Source: a virus
Lineage: Duplodnaviria; Caudoviricetes
Length of the DNA stretch: 63,999 nt
Reading direction: 5' to 3' (one strand)
IMG/VR virus record: IMGVR_UViG_3300022871_000016
Coordinates: 1-63,999 of that record
In this document: positions 29,851 through 61,779 of the stretch, one piece after another
How the letters are laid out: each line of letters starts with the position of its first letter
Position numbering within the stretch: position 1 is the stretch's first letter
Translations under genes and position numbers: made by a program
Notes under the pieces: model-generated
What the model was told of the DNA's origin: nothing
The model's input: the letters and a program-made list of their open reading frames with translations, nothing else
The model's database searches: none

Positions 29851-30792
29851 TTAACCGCTAGAGCTACTTGATGAACTAAAGCTACTTGAGCTGAAAGAAC
29901 TGCTTGAACTAAATGAGCTACTTGATGAACTAGAACTACTTGAGCTGAAAGAACTGCTTGAACTAAATGAGCTACTACTTGATGATGAACTAGAAGAATC
30001 ACTACTGCTTGATGATGAACTAGAATTACTTGAACTTGATGAGCTCGAAGAACTTGATGAAAGAGAAGATGAACTCGATGAGCTAGATGAGCTAGAACTT
30101 GAGCTAGATGAGCTAGAACTTGAGCTAGATGAGCTTGAAGAAGATCTACTTGAACTAGACGATGAGCTGGAACTCATTGAACTAGAAGAACTAGAAGAAC
30201 TAAAGTTTCCTTCAGGAGGATTATAAGAACTCCACCTAATCTCTTTTAAATTAATACCGGAATGCAATAACTGATACGCGGCTAATTCTCTAGTTAATTT
30301 ATCATCAGTAAACCTAACTTTAAAATAATATTCATAAGAAAGTAATATCGCGCCACTTGCCGGAATAGGATTGAATGTTATATATGATTTTTCAGTGGTA
30401 AAATTATTGCTTAAAGTGTAGTTTGTATTAGCAACGCCACCAACAGTACAAGAACTATTTGCAGAAACATCAACAGGAAAATTATGAAGTAAAAAAGCGG
30501 CTGTTACTCCATCAGCTGACCCTAATGCTTCATCTGTTATTTGATACTCGGTAAGAATTTTTAATAAAAAATAATCATAAGCGCCTAACCTTGCAATATA
30601 AAAATCCCAAATTACATTCATTGCTGTTTGGGTTAGGAATTTACAAGTAAGGTTATAATCTCTTAATCCATGATCCCATAAAGCATCGCGTTGTTCTATG
30701 CCACTTTCAGAATCACTTATATTGGTATTAAAACTTATAGTTTCTTTTAAACCAAATTCAGGTGTTAATGTTAGTATATTAGTATTAGCCAT
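29851..30792 (-). CDS. Distal tail protein (DUF2460-like) with a ~115-aa poly-Ser C-terminal tail
   Basis: SGIEQRDALW, DFYIARLG, ADGVTAAF and KVRFTDD, then a Ser tract. Confidence 0.85.
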   Translation of the reverse strand: MANTNILTLTPEFGLKETISFNTNISDSESGIEQRDALWDHGLRDYNLTCKFLTQTAMNVIWDFYIARLGAYDYFLLKILTEYQITDEALGSADGVTAAFLLHNFPVDVSANSSCTVGGVANTNYTLSNNFTTEKSYITFNPIPASGAILLSYEYYFKVRFTDDKLTRELAAYQLLHSGINLKEIRWSSYNPPEGNFSSSSSSSSMSSSSSSSSSRSSSSSSSSSSSSSSSSSSSSSSSSSSSLSSSSSSSSSSSNSSSSSSSSDSSSSSSSSSSFSSSSSFSSSSSSSSSSSFSSSSSFSSSSFSSSSSSSG

Positions 30793-32728
30793 ATTTTTGT
30801 GTAATTCCTCTTAATGATTGATTATCCATTATGCTTCTTCCGGAAGCATTTGCATAAATATCTCCGTTCTGCTGTAACCTTTCTCTGAATGATCGTTCAT
30901 CAATAGTTTGAATATAATAATTATTTACTACTCCGCCGCCGCCGCCGGAACCTTCTCCGCGATTAAGCTTATTCAAATTATCTACACCTAAATTGCCCAT
31001 TGCTCTTCGGTTTAATACACCCTCACCCTCAAGTAATGTTGCGGGAACTTCTCCTCCAGAATGAAACTTCTTTCGATACCCAAAACTATTTTTTGAATCC
31101 ATAATATACCCACCAGAATGAGCGCGTGCAGTTCCTGCATTAATAACGGCACCAACAACCCCTCCTGAATATCCTAATAGCCCAGCTGCTTTTTGCCATA
31201 TTGACATTATTATTAAATTAGCAATAATATCTGTAATAGTTTTTAACATTGCATCACCAAATGACACTAATACATCTTTTAATGATTCAAAATCTCCTTT
31301 GATAACCTTAAAAAAACCATCAGACATAGAATTACGCATATTAACAGCAAATGATTTCGTCATTACTTCCATAGCATCGTATTGATCTTTGGCATCTGTT
31401 AACGCAAGCTTTCGTAATTTTGTTACTTTAGCTTGATACCATTCCTCTATCTCTAATTTTCTAGCTGCATTATCTTCAAATACTTTTAGGTATAAAGCAT
31501 ACTCTTGATTTAATTGTTCTATTTGATAATCAGCTCGAGTTCTTTGAAATATTGAATATGTATCTGCCCATTCTTTTTGTGTTGCCATTTTAGCTTGTTC
31601 TGCTTCTATTATTTTACCTTGTTCTTTAAGTCTAATTGAATCCATAAATGATTGAATTTCTAACTGTGTTTTTCTTGTTATCAAAGCAAGTCTTTCTTGT
31701 TGTTTCTCTGCAATCTTATTTGTAAGATTATCAGGTTTCATGAATAAGAAATTTTTCCCACTTATATTCTTGCTAGTTTTAATTAAAATTTGTAACGATT
31801 TATCAACTTTGCTTATTTCTTTATCTAATACCATCATTGCAGTAGAAGCATTTTTACCAGACCACGTATCAAACATATCTTTCATTATTTTCATACCAGC
31901 CTGCAAATGAAATGTTTTATTAAGAAAAAAACCTAAAGCTTCTTTTGCATCACTCCAAGCGTTAGCCATCTGCGCTACGCTACCTGCATAACTTTTTATA
32001 TCTCTTTGAGCTCTTCCAGCCATCTTTCCTTCTATCAATCCAAGAACCATTTCAAATTGTTTGGCTACAGACATGCTTTTAGGTATAGTAACTCCGAACA
32101 ACCTAGATATTTGCATTGTATATCCAACAGCACTTTTTGCTATTAGCTCACCCGCTTCTGATAGGCTTCTTCCGGACCCTGCTGCAAAATCTACAACAGC
32201 TTGGGTTGCTCTTTTTAATTTAGAAGGTACAACTCCGCCTACAGTAATTAATTTTTCCATTACTTCCAATATTGCTTCATCACCGTATCTAGTTGTTTCT
32301 TGAAAAGCAGCAGACAATTCTTTAAGATTATTTTGCATAAATTTAGAAGCAGTACCTTGGATTTCCATAGCAAAGCTAAGACGCTTTACAGCATCTTCTT
32401 GTATCATCATAGCTTTGGTAGCTGATTTAAAAAGATTGATTAATGGTCCTAAAGCAAACATCCAAACAAGTATTATGTTACGCATAGAACCAATAGATCC
32501 TATTAGCTTACCTATTTGAGCGTTGTGGAATCTTGAAAACCTTCCTGCTTTTTCATGTCCTTGCGCCATTTTATCTAAAGCCATAGCAGTTTCAGCCCCA
32601 GTTTTTTGAAATTGGACTCCTACCTTCTTCATGGAATTAATCATTGCTGCATTAGCTTTTATGACTTTACCAGAAGCTTTATCAACAAATGTTGCTCTAA
32701 CTGTAAAATTTTGATCGCCTACTGCCAT
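30785..32728 (-). CDS. Tape measure protein
   Basis: Ala-rich helical protein after the chaperones; FHSGGEVPATLLEGEGVL C-terminal motif. Confidence 0.9.
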   Translation of the reverse strand: MAVGDQNFTVRATFVDKASGKVIKANAAMINSMKKVGVQFQKTGAETAMALDKMAQGHEKAGRFSRFHNAQIGKLIGSIGSMRNIILVWMFALGPLINLFKSATKAMMIQEDAVKRLSFAMEIQGTASKFMQNNLKELSAAFQETTRYGDEAILEVMEKLITVGGVVPSKLKRATQAVVDFAAGSGRSLSEAGELIAKSAVGYTMQISRLFGVTIPKSMSVAKQFEMVLGLIEGKMAGRAQRDIKSYAGSVAQMANAWSDAKEALGFFLNKTFHLQAGMKIMKDMFDTWSGKNASTAMMVLDKEISKVDKSLQILIKTSKNISGKNFLFMKPDNLTNKIAEKQQERLALITRKTQLEIQSFMDSIRLKEQGKIIEAEQAKMATQKEWADTYSIFQRTRADYQIEQLNQEYALYLKVFEDNAARKLEIEEWYQAKVTKLRKLALTDAKDQYDAMEVMTKSFAVNMRNSMSDGFFKVIKGDFESLKDVLVSFGDAMLKTITDIIANLIIMSIWQKAAGLLGYSGGVVGAVINAGTARAHSGGYIMDSKNSFGYRKKFHSGGEVPATLLEGEGVLNRRAMGNLGVDNLNKLNRGEGSGGGGGVVNNYYIQTIDERSFRERLQQNGDIYANASGRSIMDNQSLRGITQKYG

Positions 32729-32729
32729 A

Positions 32730-33448: not shown

Positions 33449-33459
33449 GACACCCTCCT

Positions 33460-33936: not shown

Positions 33937-33946
33937 TCATATCCTT

Positions 33947-34966
33947 TTAAGCACTCTCACTACTAGAACTTGACGAACTAGAACTGCTTGAACTATTTGA
34001 ACTACTTGAGCTAGATGAACTAGATGATGTTCCCATAGTAATTGTTATCTCATCATTACCCGCGTCTGAATTCTTACAAATTTCGCAAGTAGCACTTAAC
34101 GCCGCAATACCACTTCTATCAGCTTCTTTTAATCCTGTGTACCTTACTGCCGGCAATGAAAAAGTAATATTATTTCCATTGCTATCATTCATATTAATCA
34201 CTACAGCCATTGTAGAACGAGAAAGTATCTTTGAATAAAAATCATGGCTAGCAATAGAAACTAATTCAGGGTCAAATGACATTTGTGGATTTCTACCAAC
34301 TATTTTAGCATAATCAATACCAGATGAATCTTGAGGTCTAGGAGATATAACAACTTCATTCTGCATATCAATTTCTAAAGTATCCATTACTAAACTATCA
34401 CTGTCAATAGTAACAGTTGCACCCATAAAAATTAAAGGAACTTGTTCCGGGTATGTAGGAGTTAACAGTGCAGTATCGCTATGTTCGTAATATTTACCTT
34501 CCATTGCAAATTCACAAAAAACAGGTTCACCAACTTTAAACTGAAATTTAACATTACCGGCACAACCTGACATTGTTTTTCTTATTCCATCTAAGTATTT
34601 AGCTACTGTACAGGTAACAAAACTACTTGATACAGGAACATAAATATTAGATGTTCCAACTGAAAGGCTTTCTGACAATCCACAAGAACGAAGAAACGGC
34701 GTTAGTGGTAGTGTTGTTCCTTTTGATCCGGATATTGGCCCCATTAACTCAGCTTTAAAAGCAAGCGACATTTTCCTTGCACCAGGCTCAGAAGCAAACC
34801 TAGACATATGCTTCACAACAGGATTTCTTTTATACTGTTCAAAATCAGCATCTAACACTGGCTCATATGACAGTATTGTAGCTTGTGCTGCTGCTAATGT
34901 TTCTGCTGTTCCACTAATAGTTTCTACTTTTCCTGCTAATTGAGCAACTCTTGATATTTTAGCCAT
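33947..34966 (-). CDS. Major tail tube protein with a short poly-Ser C-terminus
   Basis: Size, position and beta-rich tube-like pattern, ending NDEITITMGT plus about 25 Ser-rich residues. Confidence 0.8.
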   Translation of the reverse strand: MAKISRVAQLAGKVETISGTAETLAAAQATILSYEPVLDADFEQYKRNPVVKHMSRFASEPGARKMSLAFKAELMGPISGSKGTTLPLTPFLRSCGLSESLSVGTSNIYVPVSSSFVTCTVAKYLDGIRKTMSGCAGNVKFQFKVGEPVFCEFAMEGKYYEHSDTALLTPTYPEQVPLIFMGATVTIDSDSLVMDTLEIDMQNEVVISPRPQDSSGIDYAKIVGRNPQMSFDPELVSIASHDFYSKILSRSTMAVVINMNDSNGNNITFSLPAVRYTGLKEADRSGIAALSATCEICKNSDAGNDEITITMGTSSSSSSSSSSNSSSSSSSSSSSSESA

Positions 34967-34980
34967 TTTCTTTCCCTCCT

Positions 34981-36243: not shown

Positions 36244-36537
36244 TTAAGAAGAACTCGAACTCGACGAAGAAGAACTCGACGAAGAAGAACTCGACGAAGA
36301 AGAACTCGACGAAGAAGAACTCGAGCTATATGAACTCGAACTAGAACTAGAACTCGAACTAGAATAAGTATTTGTATTAGGAACTACTTTACCAGTTAGC
36401 TGATGTTTTCTTCGTTCATTCATAATAAAATTGCAGTCATTTTCAACAACGTTGAACAATCCACATGCAATATTCTCACAAACAATTCCTGCACCGGCAT
36501 TATTTTTAAAAGGGCATTTATAAGCGGGATATGCCAT
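36244..36537 (-). CDS. Small Cys-rich virion-module protein with a 39-aa poly-Ser tail
   Basis: CPF...C...C...C, then a Ser tract; RBS AAGGAG. Confidence 0.7.
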   Translation of the reverse strand: MAYPAYKCPFKNNAGAGIVCENIACGLFNVVENDCNFIMNERRKHQLTGKVVPNTNTYSSSSSSSSSSSYSSSSSSSSSSSSSSSSSSSSSSSSSSS

Positions 36538-36594: not shown

Positions 36595-37149
36595 TTAACT
36601 AGATTCGCTTGAGCTCGAACTAGATGAGCTAGAACTACTTGAGTTTGATGAGCTTGAGCTTGAGCTTGAGCTACTTGAGCTACTTGAGCTTGAGCTACTC
36701 GAGCTTAATGAACTACTTGATGAACTTAATGAGCTACTTGAGCTACTTGATGAACTTGATGAGCTACTGGAAAAAGATGATGAACTGGATGATGAACTAG
36801 AAGTATTTCCAGCTACAGTTACATTTAATGCGTACCAATAACTGCCGTCACACCAAAACTCAGCAGATTCATACTTTCCTATATTAGCAGTATCATAACT
36901 AGCTCCCCCACCACCAAATCCGGCAGCAACATATACAATGCCTTGATCAGATGTATTAACATAAACACTAGCGCCTTTTAAACTATCACTAGCGGCAGGT
37001 AAAGTTAGTGTATTTCCTGAAGTTAATTTAACAAATAAAGATCCACTTCTTTCAACATCATTCTCTGTCAGAGAGTAATCTGCGGATTTACTTAGGGTTG
37101 TACCCCTACGGTTAGCGACACTATATTTATATCTGGTAGGTTTTGGCAT
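36595..37149 (-). CDS. Putative capsid decoration protein B with a 68-aa poly-Ser tail
   Basis: Paralog of 37167-37508 (LTLPAAS, GFGGGGASYDT, EFWCDGSYWYAL). Confidence 0.7.
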   Translation of the reverse strand: MPKPTRYKYSVANRRGTTLSKSADYSLTENDVERSGSLFVKLTSGNTLTLPAASDSLKGASVYVNTSDQGIVYVAAGFGGGGASYDTANIGKYESAEFWCDGSYWYALNVTVAGNTSSSSSSSSSFSSSSSSSSSSSSSSLSSSSSSLSSSSSSSSSSSSSSSSSSSSNSSSSSSSSSSSSESS

Positions 37150-52940: not shown

Positions 52941-52980
52941 ATTACTTGACTCCTCGCTGTCCTATTGCTACAATAGGACT

Positions 52981-53456: not shown

Positions 53457-54494
53457 TTACTCCTCATAAGGCTTTTCGGGATGCCTATAGTTTATTATAG
53501 GTATCTTTATCCTAAAATTCAACATTTTCTTGAAATTCTCATAAAGTAAATTCATCGAACCTTGAGCTTGACTATCCATATGTTCCTGAGTTTCTTTATG
53601 TTTATTAGCTTTTAAGTATCTAGCAGCACAGCCATGCCGATTCTCTATCTGGCAATTACGCCACTTTTTATGGTAATATTGGCCATGATAAGAGTAAATT
53701 GGGATTCCACACTCAGTCTTTATTAATCCTCTATCTTTAACGGCACGAATATATGGCTTGAGTAATTGCTCGTTGGTCGATAACCATTGAATCCCTGCCA
53801 AGACAACTGTCTTATCTGCTGAGCCAGCTTCTAACAAACATAAATTCATTGCGTCCATATCTGGAGCTTTGAAATTAGTGCCTTTCATTTCATCAAAACC
53901 GTCCATAAATATAGAAAAACTTTTAGCTAAGCATTCACCCCATATCTTCATATCAACGAACAGCGGACAATTACATAAATCAACAGGATTATAATAACCC
54001 TTCGGCATTAACCATTCTCCTTTGAATTGATGGTGCGGATCATCGTAAACTTTATTCTGCTCTTTACCGGCACATAATACCAATCCAGTCTTTGCTGCCA
54101 TTGTAAAGTAATGTATTGGGTTTCGGCAGAATATCATATCAGCATCTAAAACACATATTGCATCATAAAGTTTACCTATCTTATTTGCAAACCAATATCG
54201 CTTACGACAAACAACTTCACTAAGACCATGAGATTCTTTTATTTCTTCCTCACTAATGTCATGAAAAATAATTCTATAATTAAGTAATTTGAATTGGTCT
54301 TTAACTATCATTGGAATTTTAGAACCATAGAAATGAACGTCTTGAGTATTGCCAACATAATCTAAAGAATTCAATTCGGCAACAACTTCTGGAAGGTATC
54401 GTATATCTGCACAAACTACATACGCATACTTACTTCTAGGCTCGTTACATTCTACTGAGAAAACTTTTCCAGGGTTTGTATTTACTTCTTCCAT
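53457..54494 (-). CDS. GT-A glycosyltransferase (GT8-like)
   Basis: YAYVVCAD start, ICVLDADM DxD motif, DMDAMN. Confidence 0.75.
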   Translation of the reverse strand: MEEVNTNPGKVFSVECNEPRSKYAYVVCADIRYLPEVVAELNSLDYVGNTQDVHFYGSKIPMIVKDQFKLLNYRIIFHDISEEEIKESHGLSEVVCRKRYWFANKIGKLYDAICVLDADMIFCRNPIHYFTMAAKTGLVLCAGKEQNKVYDDPHHQFKGEWLMPKGYYNPVDLCNCPLFVDMKIWGECLAKSFSIFMDGFDEMKGTNFKAPDMDAMNLCLLEAGSADKTVVLAGIQWLSTNEQLLKPYIRAVKDRGLIKTECGIPIYSYHGQYYHKKWRNCQIENRHGCAARYLKANKHKETQEHMDSQAQGSMNLLYENFKKMLNFRIKIPIINYRHPEKPYEE

Positions 54495-54507: not shown

Positions 54508-55113
54508 TTACATTATGCGTTTCATAAACATGCAACCTCTACCACATGGCTCAACGTCAGGGAAAATATAATAATCACGATAACCTAATACTTCGTCAGC
54601 GGCTTTCCTAACATCCTCATGCCACTTATCAACACCATCTAAATAAAAATCATGTCCAACAAACCAACCACCTTTTTTTACTTTAGAAAGCCATGCCACC
54701 ATATCTTCTTTTGCATCTTTATACCAATGACAAGCATCAACAAAAACAAGGTCCAGGGAATTATCTTGAAAATCTTTAACGGCATTTATTGATTTAGCAC
54801 AAAGAAAAGTGCTTATATCAGAATATTCTTTTGCAAGTTCTAAGCATTGTTTCGAAGGTGAATGATCTATCATGTAGTAATGCTTAAATTGTAAAGGGCT
54901 ACCCATGTTTCCTTTATCAAAGAAAGAATGATGTTCTCTCAATATTCTTTTTGCAGTATCGCCTCGATAAACTCCTACTTCAGCTATTTGCTTTAAATTA
55001 TATTGTCGTATCAATAACGTCAGCAAATCCCAACGCATTAAATTCTGAATTGGGAATAATTTATAGCCTTCAGTTAGTTTCTCAAATTTTAGATTTCTTT
55101 TTATTTCCCACAT
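54508..55113 (-). CDS. Class I SAM methyltransferase (Methyltransf_24-like); start likely MWEIK
   Basis: AEVGVYRG, DLVFVDACHWY and KKGGWFVGHDF. Confidence 0.85.
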   Translation of the reverse strand: MWEIKRNLKFEKLTEGYKLFPIQNLMRWDLLTLLIRQYNLKQIAEVGVYRGDTAKRILREHHSFFDKGNMGSPLQFKHYYMIDHSPSKQCLELAKEYSDISTFLCAKSINAVKDFQDNSLDLVFVDACHWYKDAKEDMVAWLSKVKKGGWFVGHDFYLDGVDKWHEDVRKAADEVLGYRDYYIFPDVEPCGRGCMFMKRIM

Positions 55114-55114
55114 A

Positions 55115-55279
55115 TTAAAATTGTTTAATTGTTGTAACCCTAGCACCATGCAACACCTTGCATGCCATGTCTGCATGGAAAATACCTATCTCAGCTATTT
55201 TCCTAAGATCATATTTATTAATTAAAGTCTCAACAACCTCCCACCTAGGAGTTTCTATTTTACCAAACAGTTCTTTCAT
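55115..55279 (-). pseudogene. Truncated 54-aa methyltransferase N-terminal fragment (absent from the ORF track)
   Basis: MKELFGKIETPRWEVVETLINKYDLRKIAEIGIFHAD aligns with RWDLLTLLIRQYNLKQIAEVGVYRGD of the next gene. Confidence 0.7.
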
Positions 55280-56135
55280 AATCCTCCACTGCTATTTCTG
55301 GACGCATTGCATTGAACTCAGCCATATAGTCACGAATTAAATTCCAGTTAGCTATTGTGATTGACATGTCTTTTCCAGGATTATTCCTTAGCTCACTATT
55401 AGCCCTTCCTTTCTGCCACCAACGGTTGTGGATCCCTCGAAGCCTAACGTCATTATTCGTTAAGATATTATTTCCGCTTCTACGTAAAGGTATATTATTA
55501 AGATTCTTTTGGAACGCCCATATATGACGCTCAAGAGTAATCACTTCTTCAAAAGGAACAGCTGCCTTTACAACATTGTTGAGAATTATAACCGGATGGT
55601 TTCTATCTCCCTCTAACTTCTGATCCATTGTCTCAGCAACAGTGGAAAAGATATTCTTATGTGTTGGATTTGCAAAAATGAATTGGTCTGTCAACGAACA
55701 CTGCCCTCTATCAACAACAGGAGAATTTCTTGCGTATAAATCTTCTATAGTGTTAGAATAATTGAAATGTTCTGTTAAAACAAGACAGCCATCAGCAGCC
55801 GCTTTGAAAAGAGCTGTCATATTGCTTAAAGGCATATGGTCTGCTTGAGTGTGGCATATAGCGTCATAATTATTAATAACTTTCTTTGTCATCAACCAAG
55901 TTGCGATCCAATGCCTATCAGCTATCTTATTTGTTCCCTCGATCAATTCTGGTATAAACGTCCAATTAACTTTAAATGGAAAAGAGCAAGATATTTTATT
56001 TCTCATTTCTGAAGGTATATTGGCATAAGCAACTTCCCAATCAGCTCTTACCCCAAAATGAGCCATAGCGTTCATGGCACTTATCATACCGAACAAATAT
56101 CCACCAGTGCAAGAAAGTGTAAATGCGTATTTCAT
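55260..56135 (-). CDS. GT-A-like glycosyltransferase, divergent paralog of 53457-54494
   Basis: KYAF...YL...NAM and YDAICHTQADHM parallel KYAY...YL...NSL and YDAICVLDADM. Confidence 0.6.
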   Translation of the reverse strand: MKYAFTLSCTGGYLFGMISAMNAMAHFGVRADWEVAYANIPSEMRNKISCSFPFKVNWTFIPELIEGTNKIADRHWIATWLMTKKVINNYDAICHTQADHMPLSNMTALFKAAADGCLVLTEHFNYSNTIEDLYARNSPVVDRGQCSLTDQFIFANPTHKNIFSTVAETMDQKLEGDRNHPVIILNNVVKAAVPFEEVITLERHIWAFQKNLNNIPLRRSGNNILTNNDVRLRGIHNRWWQKGRANSELRNNPGKDMSITIANWNLIRDYMAEFNAMRPEIAVEDYERTVW

Positions 56136-56773
56136 CGTGCCCCCTCATGTTTGAATTCTTCTTTTAAAACCTTTTTATGGCTGATAAGACCCCATTGACC
56201 GCCTCTCGGAACTTTCCAATTGCCCCAGAGGTATGTTAAAAATTCTTCTGGCGGATTAGGCACAAAATACTTCTCTCCTTTAAATTCTATTTCTTTCAAA
56301 TTGTCAAAGTATTTTTGAGGATATGGTATATACAAATCATATCCGTCTTTAACAAATCTGTAAAAACAACGTTCTCCGCCAAAAGAAAAAAGAACATAAA
56401 AATCTATTTTCTCTCTATGCTCTTTTCTTGCAATGTATCCAGATGTTCTGCGACCATCGATTGTCTCACCGAAACAAGTATAGTAACCCATTTCTTTAAA
56501 GATTTTCTCAGCTTCAACAAACTTATCTGCATCTTCGAAAAGAACACCAACGTCAGCATCATCGTCTAGCCAAGGGAAATCATGATCGCGGATAGCCCCA
56601 ACTAATGTTCCGCAGAATAAAAAGAATTTTATTCCTACTTTTCCAAAGACTAATCTTAAATCTTGTAAATATTCATTAGTCCTCTTAAAATTCATTCGTT
56701 GAGGATGACCTTCGTATTTCTCCTTACTGGTCATTTCTTTATACAACGCGTCGTGCGAAGACCATTTTTTCAT
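56132..56773 (-). CDS. LicD/fukutin-family nucleotidyltransferase-fold phosphotransferase
   Basis: FLFCGTLVGAIRDHDFPWLDDDADVG and VPNPPEEFLTYLWGNW. Confidence 0.9.
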   Translation of the reverse strand: MKKWSSHDALYKEMTSKEKYEGHPQRMNFKRTNEYLQDLRLVFGKVGIKFFLFCGTLVGAIRDHDFPWLDDDADVGVLFEDADKFVEAEKIFKEMGYYTCFGETIDGRRTSGYIARKEHREKIDFYVLFSFGGERCFYRFVKDGYDLYIPYPQKYFDNLKEIEFKGEKYFVPNPPEEFLTYLWGNWKVPRGGQWGLISHKKVLKEEFKHEGAR

Positions 56774-57174
56774 TTTTTACCCCAATTAATCTTATCCCAG
56801 ATAAACTCATTAAATACATAAAGAAAATGTTTGATTAGAATATAAGTAATGGTTATTTTATTCATAGTCTGAACATCCCCAGTGACTATTAAGGTGATTA
56901 CACCTAGGATTAGAAAACCTAGTATGCTCTCATATGTAATCATCTTTAAAATTTTTCTCTTTAAACCAACAAAATCAGTATGTAAATAAAATCTCTCATG
57001 TGCCCAGAATACAAAAAAGAACACTCCATGATGTAAAAAAGTTATCCAAGATGTTTGTACCCATTGTCTAGTATAAAAATAAGTTACGGCTCCAAGTACG
57101 AGCACTCCTACAACACGCCAAATTGCACTTTTTACTACCGACCTTGTTTCAGTTTCTTTTATTTTAATTTCCAT
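56770..57174 (-). CDS. DUF2061-like membrane protein (two repeats)
   Basis: ETETRSVVKSAIWR...HERFY and second repeat ...NEFIWDKINWG. Confidence 0.8.
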   Translation of the reverse strand: MEIKIKETETRSVVKSAIWRVVGVLVLGAVTYFYTRQWVQTSWITFLHHGVFFFVFWAHERFYLHTDFVGLKRKILKMITYESILGFLILGVITLIVTGDVQTMNKITITYILIKHFLYVFNEFIWDKINWGKK

Positions 57175-57335
57175 TTTATCCCCCCGGTATATTCAACAGC
57201 GTTGTAATTATTATTTGGATCTAAATCTCCTGATATCCATATCTCGTCTGGTATTACTGTGCATTTTTTATTTAAACCTAACCCAGCGCAACCATTAACC
57301 ATTATTAGAACTATTGCCATTATTATTATCCGCAT
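57159..57335 (-). CDS. 58-aa putative lipoprotein (absent from the ORF track)
   Basis: AAGGAG RBS; MRIIIMAIVLIMVNGC lipobox; ends YTGGIKWKLK. Confidence 0.6.
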   Translation of the reverse strand: MRIIIMAIVLIMVNGCAGLGLNKKCTVIPDEIWISGDLDPNNNYNAVEYTGGIKWKLK

Positions 57336-57738
57336 TTATCTTCTCCTTAATGTTTGTTGAACTCTGTTCACTGAAGTAAGGCATTACAATAACTCGACCG
57401 CCAATCGATTTCATAAAGTTATTAGCTGGATATTCTGAATGCGAAGTTGACTCAAATAAGATATCTGGCTTGGTTGCCTTACAATTCCCCAAAGGACTAT
57501 AGTCATCCTGACATATAGCACAAGTTACAAACTTCAAACTGTTTATAATGTAAATGCGTTCTGCTAAAGACATTATTGGGCTAGGCTTCTTTTCCATTAC
57601 TGCCTTCTCCGATAATACTCCTACAAAAAGCGCATCACATAATTTTGAACAGTTTTCAAGATGTAATAAATGACCTGTATGAATTATATCTCCCACTACG
57701 TATGCGTAACCTATAATTTTATTTTTCATTTTACTCAT
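57295..57738 (-). CDS. Cytidylyltransferase-like protein (TagD/RfaE domain II family)
   Basis: DIIHTGH (HxGH), LFVGVLS, PIMSLAER and QSSTNIK. Confidence 0.9.
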   Translation of the reverse strand: MSKMKNKIIGYAYVVGDIIHTGHLLHLENCSKLCDALFVGVLSEKAVMEKKPSPIMSLAERIYIINSLKFVTCAICQDDYSPLGNCKATKPDILFESTSHSEYPANNFMKSIGGRVIVMPYFSEQSSTNIKEKINADNNNGNSSNNG

Positions 57739-57743
57739 TAATA

Positions 57744-58424
57744 TTAGTCATTCCAAAGTTTCTTAGAATAATCAAAGCCTTCCATTTTTCTAAACATACC
57801 TAATCCATAAATACCTTCATCCAAATTAATATGTTGAATATCTATATTTTCTTGTTTTATATATTCTAAAATCCTTTTATAACCTTCTTCAGCCGGACCT
57901 CGCGTGTCGTGCATAATCCAATAGCCTAAACCATTACCTTTTAATAATGGCCAGAGAGTTTTAAACTCATGAAATACATGAGTTGCTTCATGACAGCCGT
58001 CTTGGAATACTAAATCAAATTTAGTATCTTCAAACACTTCTTTCCCCAAAGTTATTGTGTCTATTGGTAACATAGTATTCGGAAGATTATGGTCAGTTAA
58101 AATTTTTTCTACTTCACCTATCTTAACAATATCTATTCCATAATACATAACGTCTTTAAAGTTATGCCTTATAGCATTATCTCTGACACCATTAGCCATA
58201 TACCATGCTGAATAACCTTCTGCGGATCCTATCTCTAAAACTTTCTGACATCTGAATGCTCTAATTAAAAAATAAAGCATACAGCCAAAAAAAGAATCAG
58301 TCGCATTTATATTAGTAAAATGTGCTGAATGAAATAATTCCATTAGCGGTGCTGGGTATTCTTTAAAGTATTCAATGTCTTTAGGATGTTGCATTTTAAA
58401 TAAATATTTCCTTATTATTATCAA
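57744..58424 (-). CDS. Class I SAM methyltransferase (Methyltransf_24-like)
   Basis: VLEIGSAEGYS, FDLVFQDGCH and IMHDT. Confidence 0.85.
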   Translation of the reverse strand: MIIIRKYLFKMQHPKDIEYFKEYPAPLMELFHSAHFTNINATDSFFGCMLYFLIRAFRCQKVLEIGSAEGYSAWYMANGVRDNAIRHNFKDVMYYGIDIVKIGEVEKILTDHNLPNTMLPIDTITLGKEVFEDTKFDLVFQDGCHEATHVFHEFKTLWPLLKGNGLGYWIMHDTRGPAEEGYKRILEYIKQENIDIQHINLDEGIYGLGMFRKMEGFDYSKKLWND

Positions 58425-59433
58425 TCCAATTTATAACTTTTTTTATACCTGTAAGTGTATGAATCTTAGGCTCCCAATTAAGAATTTTTTTAACCTTAGA
58501 TATATCTGTAATATATACCTTTTGATCAGACGGCCGCCAATCAGCATATTTCAATTGTGTAGATCTATTCGTCAGAGATTCTAAGTGTGTTATGAATTCC
58601 TTTAAAGACTCCGTATTCTCAGAACCTCCACCTATGTTGAAAACATCTGACTTAACATCGCTATATATAAATTTATCAAAAGCATCTACTAAATCAGTAA
58701 CATAAAGAAGATCTCTAACTTGCTTACCATCGCCAAAAATAGTTATTTCTTTCTTTAATAAATTAGCAATTATAAACCAAGCAACCCAACCTTGATCCTC
58801 AAAGCCAAACTGTCTAATCCCATAAATACAAGACATTCTAAATACACCAGTTCGCATCCCATAAATATGTGCATATTCCTGAGCATATAAATCTCCGACT
58901 AATTTAGAGACACCATACGGAGTATGTCCTGTTAAATCAACAGGCAGAGTTTCTTTAACTCCTTTAGTACCTAAATAATTATATCGTGTCCTTCCTTCTT
59001 CTAATGGTATCGTGTCTACATTCTCGCCATAAACTTTATTGGTAGAACAATAACAAAATGTAGCTTTTGGATTTATTTTTCTCAAACACTCAAGAACGTT
59101 AAGAGTGCCGAATGCGTTTATCTGAAAATCTTCTATCGGCATTCTTGTAGAACTAGGAACTCCCGGCTGGCCAGCGGTATGTATAACTGCATCAACACCT
59201 TTACTCATAGAGTTGTTTACATCTTCAACATTTCTAACATCGCCTTTTATACGTTCAATATTATCAAACGAACCTAAAAAGTTCCAATTAAACTCAACTG
59301 ACTCTTTATCATATCCAAATAACTTAGAGCGCATTAAATTATCAAGGATAACAACAGAATCTCCTTTATTAGCAAAATGTTCCGCACAATGACTTCCAAC
59401 AAGACCTGCTCCGCCAGTAATTAATATTTTCAT
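58396..59433 (-). CDS. NAD-dependent sugar epimerase, CDP-paratose/tyvelose 2-epimerase-like
   Basis: ILITGGAGLVGS, STNKVYG, PYGVSK, RMSCIYGIRQFGFEDQGWVAWF and WRPSDQKVY. Confidence 0.9.
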   Translation of the reverse strand: MKILITGGAGLVGSHCAEHFANKGDSVVILDNLMRSKLFGYDKESVEFNWNFLGSFDNIERIKGDVRNVEDVNNSMSKGVDAVIHTAGQPGVPSSTRMPIEDFQINAFGTLNVLECLRKINPKATFCYCSTNKVYGENVDTIPLEEGRTRYNYLGTKGVKETLPVDLTGHTPYGVSKLVGDLYAQEYAHIYGMRTGVFRMSCIYGIRQFGFEDQGWVAWFIIANLLKKEITIFGDGKQVRDLLYVTDLVDAFDKFIYSDVKSDVFNIGGGSENTESLKEFITHLESLTNRSTQLKYADWRPSDQKVYITDISKVKKILNWEPKIHTLTGIKKVINWIDNNKEIFI

Positions 59434-61205
59434 ATTTTTTTAGCTACGCCTAATCCTTTACCGTCATGATTCTCCATGAAATTAAAAGAGGCATTGTTAT
59501 TTGTTTTAAACTCATCCCATACATCTTGGAGTGAACAGCCGTCAGGTGTTATATCATCAAAGACAATGTAACCGCCTTTTTCTATTAATTGAACTGCATT
59601 AATTAAATCTTTTCTTGCATAATCTTTATCATGATTTCCATCAACAAGAATATAATCGAAAGTTTGCTTTCCAATAAATTTAGGTATTTCATCTAATGAA
59701 CTGCCAACAATGAATTTAACTTTATCAGTTGGAATATTCAAATAGTTCAAAGCATTTAAAACGCCTTGAGGCGTTGCTAATCCATCATTAAACAAATCAC
59801 AAAGTATTATTTCTTCTAAACTATCATAATTAGTATAGGCTGATAATAATTGGCAAATTGATATACCAGTGCGTGTTCCTATCTCTAATATTCGTTTAGG
59901 TCTTACATTAGCACCAACCCACTGCATAAAATGATACGTATCCATAAATGTATCTTTACGCTTATTCAAATGCCAGTGATACGCCTCGAGAAATGTATCG
60001 CTATCATTTAACTTCTTTAATATCCTTAATATATTAAATATCGAAGATGTTGCTTGTGGAGAATTAATACCGACAGGAAAAGATTCAGAAACGGTTATTT
60101 TATTAACATCTATAATATCTTTGTTTAAATTGCTATTATCAGCGTTTAATATATTTGGAACTGCAGTGTTATCACCAGTATTCTCAGGAACAATAGCGTT
60201 AAGAGTCACTTTATCCATTTTATTTACTCCTTCTTTTTGGTTAAGAATAACCGGGTTTTCTTTCTCATACTTCAACACTCCACCTAAGTAATACAACTCT
60301 ACCGCTCGCGCGATGTCCTCCGGGCGAATTAATTCCATGCACATTGGATTACCTTCAGAAGATTTGAACGTGCATTCTTCTATCTTTGACCGCCAACAGC
60401 CGTCATACTTTGCACATTTAATTGCGCCATTAGTATATAGGAAGCGATGATCTGGATTTAATTGCCACCTAACCCCCTCTCTGGCGCCGGCAACCACTAC
60501 GCAAGGCTTACTTAACGATGCCATTATAACCATTTGCAACGAAACTGGGCATATAGCCCCTTCTGCGTACTTAGACAGTAGAAACAGTTGCCTTAGGTTA
60601 GTTTTCCCCCTTAAATCCAATACATTGTCCAATAGTGGGTGGTTGTGAGCTGTATGTCCAACTTGAACGACTTGAATCTTATCTTTTAGCAGATTTACCA
60701 CTTCTTGATAGTAAGGATAGTATTTTAAGGTGTAGTCATTCTTGATTCCAGCATTTATCAGCCAATATTTGCCTTTTATCTGCCTAGGTAGTGCCAATTC
60801 CTCGTTTGAAAAGAAAATATCTGGCTTCATACCTGTTCGCGGTATTTCAATCCCTAGCTTCTGCGCCAAAAACATTCGATGCCCATCAGCAAAAGGAAGC
60901 CCTGACATGCCAGAAATATGGATAAGAGGGTAGTGGGATATAATATATTTAGTATCTTCCACCAATATCGGAGGAAGGTTGTCATTTTTCTTTAATTTCT
61001 CGATAGCCTCATTGACTTTAGCATTATTACTTATCGGTATTTTTTGAATATAAGGATTATTATTGAATATCTCATTGCATGGCGAACGAACGTCAATCAT
61101 ATACTTATTAGGGTAAGCTTTATACAATGACCGGATCGCCACTGACATTATTAAAATATCGCCCGGGGATAAATCGTTTACTAAGACTACTTTCTCTTTA
61201 TCCAT
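59430..61205 (-). CDS. GT9-like glycosyltransferase fused to a SAM methyltransferase
   Basis: SPGDILIM, NNNPYI, VLDLRGKTNLRQL and a Cys cluster; then ILEIGTRTG, FDYILVDGNH and GGYIVFDD. Confidence 0.85.
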   Translation of the reverse strand: MDKEKVVLVNDLSPGDILIMSVAIRSLYKAYPNKYMIDVRSPCNEIFNNNPYIQKIPISNNAKVNEAIEKLKKNDNLPPILVEDTKYIISHYPLIHISGMSGLPFADGHRMFLAQKLGIEIPRTGMKPDIFFSNEELALPRQIKGKYWLINAGIKNDYTLKYYPYYQEVVNLLKDKIQVVQVGHTAHNHPLLDNVLDLRGKTNLRQLFLLSKYAEGAICPVSLQMVIMASLSKPCVVVAGAREGVRWQLNPDHRFLYTNGAIKCAKYDGCWRSKIEECTFKSSEGNPMCMELIRPEDIARAVELYYLGGVLKYEKENPVILNQKEGVNKMDKVTLNAIVPENTGDNTAVPNILNADNSNLNKDIIDVNKITVSESFPVGINSPQATSSIFNILRILKKLNDSDTFLEAYHWHLNKRKDTFMDTYHFMQWVGANVRPKRILEIGTRTGISICQLLSAYTNYDSLEEIILCDLFNDGLATPQGVLNALNYLNIPTDKVKFIVGSSLDEIPKFIGKQTFDYILVDGNHDKDYARKDLINAVQLIEKGGYIVFDDITPDGCSLQDVWDEFKTNNNASFNFMENHDGKGLGVAKKI

Positions 61206-61779
61206 TATTCCTCGTCGTTGTAGTAACCCAATCAGATTTCTCGAAAATCAATGAATGCACATCGCTTCTTGGAGGACATTCAATCATTTCATCAATTTTT
61301 AATGAAAAACCATACAATCTAAACAATGCTTTTAGTAAATCAACTGTATAATAATGGAGATGCTCGCCCGGCTTAAAGTGTTTCCACGAATTCCACCTTA
61401 TGCTATCAGGTTTAATCGGAATAGTCATCGCAACAAAATTTGTCCGATTAATCACATTCTCAATATCAGTAAAATCCGCAATATGTTCCAGCACATCCCA
61501 AAGCGTTACAACGCTATACTGAATCCTTCTTATCCCTGTCTGCGGAACAGGCATAATATCGAAAGTATCAATGTTATTCTGCCTAATGTAGTCAGGCTTA
61601 AATGCAGCAAACCAGCCCGGACCGCACCCATAATCAAGAACTGTTGCATATTGTCTAGCGATTTTATCAATCATTGTATATTTTGCGACAAAATTCCACC
61701 GCAAGTCATTAATTTCCTTTGCTGTACACGTATGAATCTTCAAAAGATTGTAATAGTAATCAACATTATATTTAATCAT
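61198..61779 (-). CDS. Class I SAM methyltransferase (Methyltransf_23-like)
   Basis: VLDYGCGPG, LWDVLEHI and EHLHYYT. Confidence 0.88.
   Translation of the reverse strand: MIKYNVDYYYNLLKIHTCTAKEINDLRWNFVAKYTMIDKIARQYATVLDYGCGPGWFAAFKPDYIRQNNIDTFDIMPVPQTGIRRIQYSVVTLWDVLEHIADFTDIENVINRTNFVAMTIPIKPDSIRWNSWKHFKPGEHLHYYTVDLLKALFRLYGFSLKIDEMIECPPRSDVHSLIFEKSDWVTTTTRNNG

What the first reader, a model, noticed from the sequence alone, without database searches (positions are those of the whole stretch)
29851..61779. Candidate phage-encoded virion glycocalyx system: poly-Ser acceptor tracts plus a dedicated glycan-building cluster
Seen: five late-arm proteins carry Ser homopolymer tracts (distal tail ~115 aa, tail tube ~25, Cys-rich protein 39, decoration paralog 68, giant protein ~910). 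The same strand, upstream of them, encodes two GT9-like and two GT-A-like glycosyltransferases, LicD, a cytidylyltransferase, an NDP-sugar epimerase and four methyltransferase domains. Known: Ser-rich repeat adhesins are O-glycosylated by adjacent GTs, TibC/Aah heptosylate Ser residues, and some mycobacteriophages glycosylate capsid and tail-tube proteins with their own GTs. Inference: the phage grafts poly-Ser tags onto head and tail proteins and decorates them, producing a mucin-like brush over the particle for shielding, anti-adsorption or host mimicry. I know of no description of this pairing.
Basis: partly seen in the sequence, partly recalled or inferred. Interest (0 to 1): 0.93.

Follow-up and report, generated by a model that had tools for sequence, protein, structure and literature searches.

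The report
Phage poly-serine proteins with glycosylation genes
An uncultured tailed phage carries long runs of serine on five head and tail proteins, and in related and unrelated phages such runs always travel with sugar-transferring enzyme genes, which suggests a sugar-coated, mucin-like virus surface that no one has yet shown at the bench.

Summary
Five minus-strand late proteins carry 23-909-aa Ser tracts: 1,078 Ser in 1,151 tract residues, coded by mixed AGY and TCN codons. Shuffled proteomes give runs of 7 or fewer.

The upstream cluster holds four methyltransferase domains, LicD, a small nucleotidyltransferase and an SDR epimerase/dehydratase by Pfam. It also holds two GT9-like and two GT8-like glycosyltransferases, seen only by fold, orthologue or profile evidence.

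New evidence:
- All 21 viral contigs found with a profile of the 280-aa GT9-like enzyme (35-58% identity, GC 0.29-0.55) hold a poly-Ser ORF on the same strand within 8 kb.
- Ten tail-less relatives of the distal tail protein have no such enzyme.
- One near-complete relative keeps the poly-Ser proteins but has swapped in a different sugar cassette with a GT9-like domain.
- In relatives the tracts are often stalks that carry lectin-like domains.

Best reading (0.6): phage-encoded O-glycosylation of poly-Ser stalks and tails. It works like serine-rich-repeat adhesins and mycobacteriophage virion glycosylation. No biochemistry exists. The three core enzymes are absent from 50,697 GenBank phage records.

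The parts
61198..61779 (-). 193-aa SAM methyltransferase, first gene of the cluster. In relative G002 it is fused to the GT9-methyltransferase protein.
   Evidence: Pfam Methyltransf_23, E 3.2e-11. Orthologues in G003 and L018. 835-aa MT-GT9-MT fusion in L021/G002.
59430..61205 (-). 591-aa two-domain enzyme: N-terminal GT9-like glycosyltransferase (about aa 1-330) plus C-terminal Methyltransf_24 domain (aa 440-552). It is the most widely shared enzyme and my candidate for the priming transferase (inference).
   Evidence: Pfam Methyltransf_24, E 1.4e-15. Weak NCBIfam hits to heptosyltransferase III and RfaQ, E 0.02-0.03. Orthologues L021 and L019 hit PF01075 at 27.4 and 25.4 bits against a cut-off of 22. 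Found in 18 of 21 GT9_280 loci. G021 has a 31%-identical domain.
58396..59433 (-). 345-aa NDP-sugar epimerase/dehydratase (SDR). Accessory: not in G003, G002 or L018.
   Evidence: Pfam Epimerase, E 4.3e-47. NCBIfam best hits are dTDP-glucose 4,6-dehydratase and GalE, both below cut-off. Absences.
57744..58424 (-). 226-aa methyltransferase (core).
   Evidence: Pfam Methyltransf_24, E 2e-12. Orthologues in G003, G002 and L018 and in 15 of 21 loci.
57295..57738 (-). 147-aa small nucleotidyltransferase (accessory). Which activated sugar or alcohol it makes is unresolved.
   Evidence: Pfam CTP_transf_like, E 6.7e-7. NCBIfam rfaE domain II E 7e-20 and TagD-type E 1.7e-6, both below cut-off. Source names of homologues are mixed.
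56770..57174 (-). 134-aa DUF2061 membrane protein (accessory). Probably works with the nucleotidyltransferase.
   Evidence: Pfam DUF2061, E 3.5e-10. A 258-aa homologue, P0358, fuses PF09834 with PF01467.
56132..56773 (-). 213-aa LicD-family phospho-alcohol transferase (accessory).
   Evidence: Pfam LicD, E 1.3e-11, N-terminal 48 profile positions only. NCBIfam cholinephosphotransferase Mf1, E 5e-8, below cut-off. A 24%-identical homologue sits next to an NT147 homologue in L055.
55260..56135 (-). 291-aa remote paralogue of the GT8-like enzyme. Its D-x-D motif reads Q-A-D.
   Evidence: hhalign against alignment A2: probability 87%, E 3.9e-6, over 115 columns. No Pfam, PHROG or NCBIfam hit.
54508..55176 (-). 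222-aa methyltransferase (accessory here).
   Evidence: Pfam Methyltransf_24, E 5.9e-17. Absent from G003, G002 and L018.
53457..54494 (-). 345-aa GT8-like retaining-type GT-A glycosyltransferase (core).
   Evidence: AF2 model pLDDT 91.7. Foldseek best hits LARGE1, WbbM, LgtC and glycogenin at about 1e-7 to 1e-6. VIA Z 18-19 to WbbM, glycogenin and GlyE. D117-A-D119 invariant in 35 sequences.
52098..52940 (-). 280-aa GT9-like GT-B glycosyltransferase (core). This is the family used for the co-occurrence test.
   Evidence: AF2 model pLDDT 94.3. Foldseek: TibC 4e-7, GT9 3tov, WaaF, WaaC. VIA: TibC Z 13.6 (237-244 aligned, rmsd about 18), WaaF Z 13.5 (132 aligned, rmsd 2.4). 183 homologues, none named.
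46297..49218 (-). 973-aa protein: 24-aa N-terminus, about 909-aa Ser tract (DNA 46420-49146) punctuated mainly by Phe, and a 40-aa C-terminal aromatic-repeat end that is conserved in relatives.
   Evidence: C-terminal end conserved at 47-65% in G001-G004 and L018. N-terminal domain varies from 20 to 445 aa in relatives. G005 has a poly(Thr/Ser) version with a similar C-terminal end.
37167..37508 (-). 113-aa tail-less paralogue of the 184-aa protein. It is the gene right after the capsid gene and serves as a natural negative control.
   Evidence: Orthologues in all five full records.
36595..37149 (-). 184-aa paralogue with a 65-aa Ser tail (DNA 36607-36801). In most relatives the tract is a stalk carrying a galactose-binding-like domain.
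   Evidence: L001 orthologue: domain, 96-aa Ser tract, PF22633 F5_F8_type_C_2 (E 6.2e-7), 19-aa Ser tail.
36244..36537 (-). 97-aa protein with four Cys and a 39-aa Ser tail (DNA 36247-36363).
   Evidence: Tails of 15-39 aa in relatives.
33947..34966 (-). 339-aa tail protein, probably the major tail protein, with a 23-aa C-terminal Ser tail (DNA 33959-34027).
   Evidence: phrog_290 'minor tail protein', E 2.8e-14. Tails of 16-36 aa in 9 relatives. No PDB sequence match.
29851..30792 (-). 313-aa distal tail protein (DUF2460) with a 115-aa C-terminal Ser tail (DNA 29857-30201).
   Evidence: Pfam DUF2460, E 4.9e-21. 22 of 23 close relatives carry a 16-127-aa Ser tail.

Best explanation
The window is a complete or near-complete genome of an uncultured siphovirus-like phage. 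I read it as follows.

Late in infection the phage makes head and tail proteins that carry homopolymeric Ser segments. Some segments are C-terminal tails: on the distal tail protein, the probable tube protein, the Cys-rich protein and the 184-aa paralogue. One is a stalk of about 900 aa, between a short C-terminal aromatic-repeat end and a variable N-terminal end.

The enzymes encoded at the head of the same leftward gene block O-glycosylate these segments in the cytoplasm before or during assembly (inferred).
- A GT9-like transferase, most likely the N-domain of the 591-aa protein, puts the first sugar on Ser.
- The 280-aa GT9-like and the GT8-like enzymes extend the glycan.
- The three Methyltransf_24 domains and the Methyltransf_23 enzyme methylate it.
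- A swappable accessory cassette varies the glycan between strains. Here it is the SDR, the nucleotidyltransferase with DUF2061, LicD and one methyltransferase.

The product would be a hydrated bottle-brush of glycosylated stalks and tails. In relatives the stalks hold lectin-like domains away from the particle, much as serine-rich-repeat adhesins do on Gram-positive cocci.

Shown here: the tracts, the enzyme folds, gene order and co-occurrence. Inferred: that Ser is the acceptor, which enzyme primes, which sugars are used, and what the coat is for.
For: 1. The tracts are real and selected at protein level. Both Ser codon families are mixed in all five tracts, and shuffles give runs of 7 or fewer against 12-36 observed. 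Of 17 loci found through the capsid gene, 14 have poly-Ser ORFs at the same orthologous genes, with very different lengths. The three without are two contigs of 4.8 and 6.1 kb, and L015.

2. Enzyme identity.
- GT9_280 is a GT-B with GT9 chains on top.
- GTA345 is GT8-like.
- Orthologues of the 591 N-domain hit PF01075.
- G002 has an MT-GT9-MT fusion.

3. Co-occurrence from enzyme to tract.
- A profile scan for GT9_280 found 21 viral loci at 35-58% identity and GC 0.29-0.55.
- 21 of 21 have a poly-Ser ORF (at least 80% Ser over 15 aa) on the same strand within 8 kb. 20 of 21 have a tract of 25 aa or more.
- There are 32 such ORFs in 338 kb, and no homopolymer of any other residue.
- With the window and G006 these 23 records form 14 clusters at 70% identity and 4 at 50%.
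- G006 (99 kb, complete, GC 0.45) has exactly one poly-Ser ORF. It lies 1.9 kb from its GT8-like gene.

4. Co-occurrence from tract to enzyme.
- 22 of 23 close distal-tail relatives have Ser tails. 41 distant relatives have none.
- The 10 longest tail-less records gave 0 of 10 matches to the GT9_280 profile. Five known positives gave 5 of 5.
- G011, complete and tail-less, has no poly-Ser or poly-Ser/Thr ORF and no cluster enzyme.
- Three cultured phages with the nearest capsid proteins (126 kb) have none.

5. G021 (99% complete) keeps poly-Ser on at least 7 ORFs. At the same genome position it has a different sugar cassette: a 4,6-dehydratase-type SDR, a DegT-type aminotransferase, a sugar C-methyltransferase, a Methyltransf_24 enzyme and a 912-aa protein with a GT9-like domain.

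6. The cluster heads the same strand as all the structural genes. No integrase turned up among the 10 largest plus-strand ORFs.

7. Precedent: mycobacteriophages glycosylate capsid and tail-tube proteins with tandem glycosyltransferase genes placed next to an O-methyltransferase gene (passages in PMC11600133 and PMC12363180).
Against: - No protein, mass-spectrometry or expression data exist.
- The window's own glycosyltransferases fail every sequence-family threshold.
- A profile of the 280-aa family does not significantly match the 591 N-domain (hhalign E 0.075).
- GT9 enzymes are best known for acting on LPS. In the fold searches LPS enzymes tie with TibC within 1 Z.
- The loci share ancestry, so 21 of 21 is not 21 independent events. 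At 50% identity there are only 4 clusters.
- The tail-less comparison group is one separate clade of mostly incomplete records (23-100% complete).
- Two short MAG contigs (3.9 and 6.7 kb) with the enzymes show no poly-Ser in the little flank they have.
- One control record, G005, gave a marginal 17-aa hit. The weakest positive, L060, is no longer than that.
- Poly-Ser linkers in bacterial carbohydrate-active enzymes are not known to need glycosylation (recalled).
Confidence: 0.6

Rival explanations
1. The Ser tracts are unmodified flexible spacers and entropic bristles, like the poly-serine linkers of bacterial carbohydrate-active enzymes. The enzyme cluster makes or alters some other glycan, such as the host envelope or LPS core, or a secreted polymer. 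The two travel together only because they sit in one inherited late-gene module.
For: - In relatives the tracts link a capsid-proximal domain to a lectin-like domain, or a display domain to a short C-terminal end. That is classic linker architecture.
- GT9 and GT8 enzymes act on LPS cores. WaaC, WaaF and LgtC are among the top fold matches.
- At 50% identity the positives fall into only 4 clusters.
Against: - The pairing holds from GC 0.29 to 0.55 and down to 35% enzyme identity, with different poly-Ser proteins in different lineages.
- In G006 the single poly-Ser gene of a 99-kb genome lies next to a GT8-like gene.
- In G021 the enzymes were exchanged for another sugar pathway at the same place while the tracts stayed.
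- Three of the five proteins have tails with nothing beyond them in every relative seen, so those are not linkers.
- No integrase turned up among the 10 largest plus-strand ORFs, so this is not a lysogenic-conversion setting.
Confidence: 0.2
2. The cluster does modify virion proteins, but not by building an O-glycan on the Ser homopolymer itself. It could glycosylate other residues or the distal domains. Or the tracts could mainly receive another group, such as a phospho-alcohol through LicD or a phosphate.
For: - The window and L055 carry LicD together with a small nucleotidyltransferase.
- The acceptor site cannot be read from sequence.
- G005 uses Thr/Ser tracts instead of pure Ser.
Against: - LicD and the nucleotidyltransferase are missing from G003, G002 and L018, which keep all five tracts.
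- No kinase was found in the cluster.
- The only feature shared by the very different poly-Ser proteins is the tract.
Confidence: 0.12
3. The tracts are assembly artefacts or functionless hyper-expanded simple repeats, and the ORFs are not translated as poly-Ser.
For: - The DNA is repetitive.
- Tract lengths vary greatly between relatives.
- No phage tRNA-Ser was found.
Against: - The same five genes carry tracts in contigs from many separate records.
- Only the Ser frame stays open over 2.9 kb.
- Both codon families are mixed.
- The tracts occur in phages of GC 0.29-0.55.
Confidence: 0.03

Closest known systems
Mycobacteriophage virion glycosylation (Che8, Corndog, Myrna; Freeman et al. 2023)
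   Same: Phage-encoded glycosyltransferases lie beside an O-methyltransferase gene, and capsid and tail-tube subunits are the targets (passages in PMC11600133 and PMC12363180).
   Different: - No detectable sequence relation. The three core enzymes find nothing in 50,697 GenBank phage records. I assume, but did not check, that this set includes those mycobacteriophages.
- Here the presumed acceptors are Ser homopolymers of 16-900 aa.
- The enzymes are GT9-like and GT8-like.
- The primary paper (PMC10527164) is not held, so its acceptor sites are known to me only by recall.
Serine-rich repeat glycoproteins of Gram-positive bacteria (Fap1, GspB, PsrP)
   Same: - A long Ser-rich stalk between an anchor and a binding domain.
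- Cytoplasmic O-glycosylation by neighbouring glycosyltransferases.
- The GT8-type extension enzyme GlyE is among the tied best structural matches of the 345-aa enzyme (Z 18.0, rmsd 2.8, 215 aligned).
[quoted passage not shown] GlyE's role on PsrP is recalled.
   Different: - These are virion proteins, not cell-wall adhesins.
- The tract is pure Ser with occasional Phe, not dipeptide repeats.
- No accessory Sec system is present.
- No GtfA/GtfB-type Pfam family hit among the 11 cluster proteins.
- The candidate primer is GT9-like.
Autotransporter heptosyltransferases (TibC, AAH)
   Same: A GT9-related GT-B enzyme puts heptose on Ser, not Thr, of a protein (PMC4358343 passages). TibC is the top or tied-top fold match of the 280-aa enzyme.
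   Different: - The 280-aa enzyme has no N-terminal beta-barrel and no four-Cys iron finger.
- LPS heptosyltransferases score within 1 Z of TibC.
- The substrate there is a folded beta-helix, not a homopolymer.
Poly-serine linkers of bacterial polysaccharide-degrading enzymes (Saccharophagus, Teredinibacter, Cellvibrio)
   Same: Homopolymeric Ser runs join a binding module to another domain. The term occurs in PMC2386152 and PMC2699552 (search listing only). The concept itself is recalled.
   Different: - Those linkers run to tens of residues, sit in secreted cellular enzymes and have no dedicated transferase cluster.
- Here they reach about 900 aa, also occur as free C-terminal tails, and sit beside sugar enzymes.
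Giant-virus self-glycosylation (chlorovirus capsid glycans, mimivirus fibrils)
   Same: A virus encodes its own sugar-nucleotide and transferase genes to coat its particle or fibrils (recalled, not checked here).
   Different: Those are eukaryotic viruses with different enzymes, and no poly-Ser acceptor is described (recalled).

Membership tests
Glycosyltransferase family 9 (Pfam PF01075, heptosyltransferases) | Sequence match to the family model above its cut-off | tested here: inconclusive
   - The window's 280-aa and 591-aa proteins give no PF01075 hit at E<=0.01.
- NCBIfam heptosyltransferase III and RfaQ hit only at E 0.02-0.03.
- Orthologues of the 591 N-domain pass: L021 at 27.4 bits and L019 at 25.4 bits, cut-off 22.
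- A PDB profile search gives GT9 3tov at E 0.068.
Glycosyltransferase family 9 (Pfam PF01075, heptosyltransferases) | GT-B two-Rossmann fold closest to GT9 structures | tested here: met
   This is for the 280-aa enzyme only. Foldseek gives TibC, 3tov, WaaF and WaaC at 4e-7 to 2e-5. VIA gives Z 12.1-13.6 for the GT9 chains against 11.8 or less for other GT-B folds.
Glycosyltransferase family 9 (Pfam PF01075, heptosyltransferases) | Uses ADP-heptose as donor | not testable with these tools
   The only lead is that the neighbouring 147-aa nucleotidyltransferase best matches the heptose-1-phosphate adenylyltransferase domain, below cut-off.
Autotransporter heptosyltransferases (BAHT: TibC, AAH) | N-terminal beta-barrel domain in front of the catalytic domain (PMC4358343) | tested here: not met
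   The 280-aa model starts directly with strand-helix-strand units of the N-lobe. The protein is too short for an extra domain of about 97 aa.
Autotransporter heptosyltransferases (BAHT: TibC, AAH) | Iron finger of four conserved Cys inserted in the C-lobe | tested here: not met
   In 37 family members only C119 and C150 are invariant and C118 nearly so. There is no four-Cys set in the C-lobe.
Autotransporter heptosyltransferases (BAHT: TibC, AAH) | Transfers heptose to protein Ser; dodecameric ring | not testable with these tools
Glycosyltransferase family 8 (Pfam PF01501) | GT-A fold with a D-x-D metal site, closest to GT8 structures | tested here: met
   VIA gives Z 17.2-18.9 to WbbM, glycogenin, GlyE and LgtC, against about 16 for GT6 enzymes. 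D117-A-D119 is invariant.
Glycosyltransferase family 8 (Pfam PF01501) | Sequence match to the family model | tested here: not met
   The window protein has no Pfam hit at E<=0.01. Of the 120 listed homologues, one carries a precomputed PF01501 hit and six carry PF03407.
LicD family (Pfam PF04991) | Match above cut-off | tested here: met
   45.4 bits against a cut-off of 22.6, but over profile positions 4-51 of 227 only. The substrate is unknown.
Mycobacteriophage-type virion glycosylation system | Phage glycosyltransferase genes next to an O-methyltransferase-type gene in a phage genome | tested here: met
   for this window. The definition comes from passages in PMC11600133.
Mycobacteriophage-type virion glycosylation system | Homology of the transferases to those of Che8, Corndog or Myrna | tested here: not met
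   tblastn of the three core enzymes against 50,697 GenBank phage records gave no match at E<=1e-3. Fold-level relatedness was not tested.
Mycobacteriophage-type virion glycosylation system | Capsid and tail-tube subunits shown to carry glycans | not testable with these tools
   This needs mass spectrometry of virions or of co-expressed proteins.
Serine-rich repeat glycoprotein / accessory Sec system | GtfA/GtfB priming pair and SecA2/SecY2 export genes | tested here: not met
   None of the 11 cluster proteins hit those Pfam families. The system is filed only as a working analogue.
Poly-serine linker proteins | Ser homopolymer joining two folded domains | tested here: met
   Met in relatives: L001 has domain, 96-aa Ser tract, then PF22633 domain, and L044, L053, L057 and L062 are similar. 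In the window itself four of the five tracts are terminal tails.

The most novel reading that the evidence does not exclude
A widespread trait of uncultured phages that has not been described before. Virions bear mucin-like glyco-fibrils and brushes built on homopolymeric serine. A GT9-type enzyme primes them by transferring sugar, perhaps heptose, directly to protein Ser. Interchangeable sugar cassettes then elaborate the glycan, so the virion glycan varies between strains the way O-antigen loci vary between bacteria. This would be the first protein-directed GT9 system outside autotransporters and the first homopolymer O-glycosylation acceptor in any virus.
Probability: 0.35. Interest if true: 0.9.

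Novelty: new variant of a known kind. Interest (0 to 1): 0.82.

Why it matters
If this holds, phage particles in natural communities can carry a dense, self-made glycan coat on purpose-built acceptor tracts. That would affect how such phages stick to hosts, particles or mucus, and how they resist proteases and grazers. It would also affect how capsid-based predictions of host range should be read.

It gives a compact set of new protein O-glycosyltransferases together with their natural acceptor tag, a plain Ser run. That pairing could be useful for glyco-engineering.

It also offers a testable case of cassette swapping in virion glycans: the window against G021.

The families are large. 183 and 296 homologues passed E<=0.001. 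None is in the 50,697 GenBank phage records, so the whole system sits in viral dark matter.

Tried and rejected
**Direct family searches.** Pfam, PHROG and NCBIfam gave nothing at E<=0.01 for the four glycosyltransferases. Single-sequence and profile searches of PDB sequences gave nothing useful: MurD at E 2.1, no hit, and 3tov at E 0.068.

**Profile comparison.** hhalign of the 280-aa family against the 591 N-domain was not significant (E 0.075).

**Labels.** The 'tail tube' label could not be firmed up. No PDB sequence match was found for the 339-aa or the 136-aa protein.

**Host.**
- No tRNA was found.
- The profile scan of 185,579 species genomes gave only two short MAG contigs, binned as Chlorobiaceae and Flavobacteriales. 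They have the enzymes but no poly-Ser in 3.9 and 6.7 kb. I treat these as uninformative.
- The host remains unknown.

**More relatives of G005.** A scan with its terminase found only G005 itself.

**Sugar donor.** Source names of homologues of the 147-aa nucleotidyltransferase are mixed: glycerol-3-phosphate cytidylyltransferase once, heptose kinase/adenylyltransferase twice, and generic names. The donor is unresolved.

**Atlas look-ups** were used only as leads.

**DNA glycosylation.** I considered it and did not pursue it. I did not annotate every plus-strand ORF, so hypermodified-base genes are not excluded.

**Sources not seen.** Supplementary files were not opened. The primary paper on mycobacteriophage glycosylation is not held, so its supplements and acceptor-site data could bear on how similar the two systems are.

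Full report
**What the window is.** The 63,999-base window is a whole virus record.
- Genes on the plus strand up to about 22 kb are replication genes: a ParB-like nuclease, a helicase, a primase and a DNA methyltransferase. None of the 10 largest is an integrase.
- From about 62.7 kb down to 22.2 kb everything runs on the minus strand.
- In order, that block holds a GroES-like gene, the enzyme cluster, three unknown genes, the 973-aa protein, terminase, portal, an 860-aa protease-capsid fusion, small head proteins and then the tail genes. The tail genes include a tape measure, a DUF2460 distal tail protein, a BR0599-type hub and a Phage-tail_3 protein.
- This tail gene order recalls the Rhodobacter gene transfer agent. 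That comparison is recalled, not tested.
- The nearest cultured capsid is from Microcystis phage Mae-JY22, at 32% identity over 66% of the protein.

- The five Ser tracts sit at the stated genes. They hold 1,078 Ser in 1,151 residues.
- Each tract mixes AGY and TCN codons. One point mutation cannot change a codon of one family into one of the other, so selection acts on the amino acid, not on a slipping triplet.
- Tandem Repeats Finder sees only loose units of 9-96 nt.
- Only the Ser frame stays open across the 2.9-kb gene.
- Shuffling the minus-strand proteome 300 times never gave a Ser run above 7.
- The main interrupting residue is Phe: 43 of 53 non-Ser residues in the two long stretches of the 973-aa protein.

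**The enzymes.**
- Pfam confirms four methyltransferase domains, LicD, a small nucleotidyltransferase, an SDR epimerase/dehydratase and a DUF2061 membrane protein.
- The four proposed glycosyltransferases are invisible to Pfam, PHROGs and NCBIfam.
- I built alignments from 183 and 296 metagenomic homologues, none with an informative name, and folded two proteins.
- The 280-aa protein (pLDDT 94.3) is a GT-B enzyme. Its best matches are GT9 members: TibC, a Veillonella GT9, WaaF and WaaC. The GT9 rows have Z 12.1-13.6, and other GT-B folds have 11.8 or less. TibC and WaaF are tied.
- The 345-aa protein (pLDDT 91.7) is a GT8-like GT-A with an invariant D-A-D. It matches WbbM, glycogenin, pneumococcal GlyE and LgtC at Z 17-19.
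- The N-domain of the 591-aa protein was not folded. Its orthologues in G002 and G006 pass the PF01075 cut-off, and in G002 the 193-aa methyltransferase is fused in front of it.
- The 291-aa protein is a remote paralogue of the 345-aa one, and its D-x-D motif reads Q-A-D.

**Close relatives.**
- The capsid gene found 17 viral loci at 49-88% identity. Fourteen hold poly-Ser ORFs, at the same orthologous genes, with lengths that differ widely.
- The three without are two contigs of 4.8 and 6.1 kb that hold little beyond the capsid gene, and L015.
- Records that reach far enough upstream all have four core enzymes next to the giant poly-Ser gene. These records are G002 at 95% complete, G003 at 100%, and G007, G008 and G010. 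The core enzymes are the GT9-methyltransferase, the 226-aa methyltransferase, the GT8-like and the 280-aa GT9-like enzymes.
- The SDR, nucleotidyltransferase, DUF2061, LicD and 222-aa methyltransferase are missing from G003, G002 and L018. L018 carries other small genes in their place. The cluster therefore has a core and a variable part.

**The co-occurrence test, from enzyme to tract.**
- A profile of the 280-aa family found 21 viral loci with 35-58% identity and GC from 0.29 to 0.55.
- All 21 contain at least one ORF with a Ser tract (at least 80% Ser over 15 aa). There are 32 such ORFs in 338 kb. All are on the enzyme's strand, and the nearest lies 350 to 7,718 bases away.
- No other amino acid forms such tracts there.
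- Twenty of the 21 have tracts of 25 aa or more. L060 has only 17.
- With the window and G006, the 23 records form 19 clusters at 90% enzyme identity, 14 at 70% and 4 at 50%.
- G006 is a complete 99-kb phage with terminal repeats. It has two GT9-like genes and a GT8-like gene. Its only poly-Ser ORF, with a 148-aa tract and the same Phe punctuation, lies 1.9 kb from the GT8-like gene.

**The test from tract to enzyme.**
- Its profile found 65 loci.
- Of 23 close relatives, 22 carry a Ser tail of 16-127 aa. L079, from a 7-kb contig, does not.
- Forty-one distant relatives have short proteins with no tail. G005 has Thr/Ser tracts.
- The 10 longest tail-less records (23-100% complete) gave no match to the enzyme profile. 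Five of them gave none to the 591 N-domain. Five known positives all matched the profile.
- G011, complete and tail-less, has no Ser or Ser/Thr tract and no cluster enzyme.
- Three cultured phages (126 kb) and the window's own plus-strand arm have no tract. G005 gave one marginal 17-aa hit in an unrelated ORF.

**The instructive exception.**
- G021 (62.8 kb, 99% complete, capsid 70% identical) lacks the 280-aa and 345-aa enzymes.
- It nonetheless has Ser tracts on at least seven ORFs. One is a 188-aa tract in its large tail protein.
- Upstream of its giant gene it carries a different sugar cassette. This holds an NDP-sugar dehydratase-type SDR, a DegT-type aminotransferase, a sugar C-methyltransferase, a second SDR, a Methyltransf_24 enzyme and a 912-aa protein. 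The N-part of the 912-aa protein is 31% identical to the 591 N-domain.
- The tracts therefore stay while the sugar chemistry changes, and the one shared transferase is the 591-type GT9 domain. This is why I propose it as the priming enzyme. That step is inference.

**What the tracts look like elsewhere.**
- In nine relatives the 184-aa protein's orthologue continues after the tract into a galactose-binding-like domain (PF22633, E 6.2e-7 in L001). Some of them then have a second short Ser tail.
- The window's version ends like that second tail. It probably lost the domain by recombination between the two tracts (inference).
- The giant protein keeps its 40-aa C-terminal aromatic-repeat end, while the N-terminal domain ranges from 20 to 445 aa.
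- In distant lineages unrelated proteins share one plan: a display domain, a Ser tract, and a short C-terminal repeat rich in Trp, Phe or Tyr.
- The distal tail, probable tube and Cys-rich proteins have plain tails in every relative seen.
- G005, the most distant capsid relative, uses Thr/Ser tracts on the giant, on its distal tail paralogues and on a head-proximal protein. Its contig ends inside the giant gene, so its enzymes are unknown.

**Mechanism and comparison.**
- The plan of anchor, long Ser stalk, binding domain and neighbouring transferases works like the serine-rich repeat adhesins.
- Phage genes that glycosylate capsid and tube proteins, placed beside an O-methyltransferase gene, are known from mycobacteriophages (passages).
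- Direct heptosylation of Ser by a GT9-related enzyme is known from TibC (passages).
- The window is a member of none of these families. There is no sequence relation to any GenBank phage, no beta-barrel or iron finger, and no GtfA/GtfB or accessory Sec genes.
- Seven literature searches found no account of poly-Ser phage proteins paired with glycosyltransferases.

**Limits.**
- Everything about the modification itself is inferred from genome comparison.
- The positive loci share ancestry.
- The tail-less controls are one clade and mostly fragments.
- The host is unknown, so action on host LPS is not excluded.
- The primary mycobacteriophage paper and all supplements were out of reach.

**Verdict.** I rate it a new variant of a known kind, with interest 0.82.

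Noticed in passing
window 52909-53415 (+); L018 15508-15933 (-): An HNH endonuclease gene (phrog_20891, E 1.5e-27) lies antisense between the GT8-like and the 280-aa GT9-like genes and overlaps the start of the latter. A similar gene sits at the same place in relative L018.
   Followed up: partly
L047 (G003) about 10976-11065, just after its GT9_280 orthologue: A stray copy of the last 30 codons of a GT9_280 gene lies there. It is 73% identical to the window's end, closer to the window's allele than the intact neighbouring gene is overall. It looks like a scar of allele replacement.
   Followed up: partly
window 36595-37149 versus L001 13027-14190: The window's 184-aa protein seems to have lost a galactose-binding-like domain that its orthologues carry between two Ser tracts. 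Recombination between the tracts would do this.
   Followed up: partly
G005: L035 1-663, L015 8989-10227, L097 2983-5622: The most distant capsid relative carries poly(Thr/Ser) tracts of 78-273 aa instead of poly-Ser. They are on the giant's orthologue, on two distal-tail paralogues and on a head-proximal protein. The giant's frame there has one in-frame stop.
   Followed up: partly
G021: L137 1785-13445: A close relative has exchanged most of the enzyme cluster for a deoxy-amino-sugar type cassette: dehydratase-type SDR, DegT aminotransferase, sugar C-methyltransferase, a second SDR and a Methyltransf_24 enzyme. Four ORFs there have no family.
   Followed up: partly
window 62443-62745 (-): A phage-encoded GroES-like co-chaperonin (Cpn10, E 4e-19) sits at the head of the late gene block.
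   Followed up: no
window 40581-42407 (-): A 608-aa protein between portal and capsid genes has a Dam-type DNA adenine methyltransferase N-domain (TIGR00571, E 5.7e-15, below cut-off) followed by a long part with CxxC pairs. This is an odd place for such a gene.
   Followed up: no
window 37598-40180 (-): The capsid protein is fused to the head maturation protease in one 860-aa ORF (phrog_29592, phrog_133, phrog_4523).
   Followed up: no
window 49830-51002 (-): A 390-aa protein between the enzyme cluster and the giant gene starts with what looks like a secretion signal (hydrophobic N-terminus read by eye, not tested). It has no family.
   Followed up: no
window 23526-25763 (-): Three neighbouring genes (186, 377 and 183 aa) share a similar N-terminal region of about 60 aa, as swappable tail-fibre or receptor-binding paralogues would. 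Only G001 has orthologues.
   Followed up: no
P0358 (homologue of window 57295-57738): A 258-aa protein fuses DUF2061 with the small nucleotidyltransferase. This links the two neighbouring window genes functionally.
   Followed up: no
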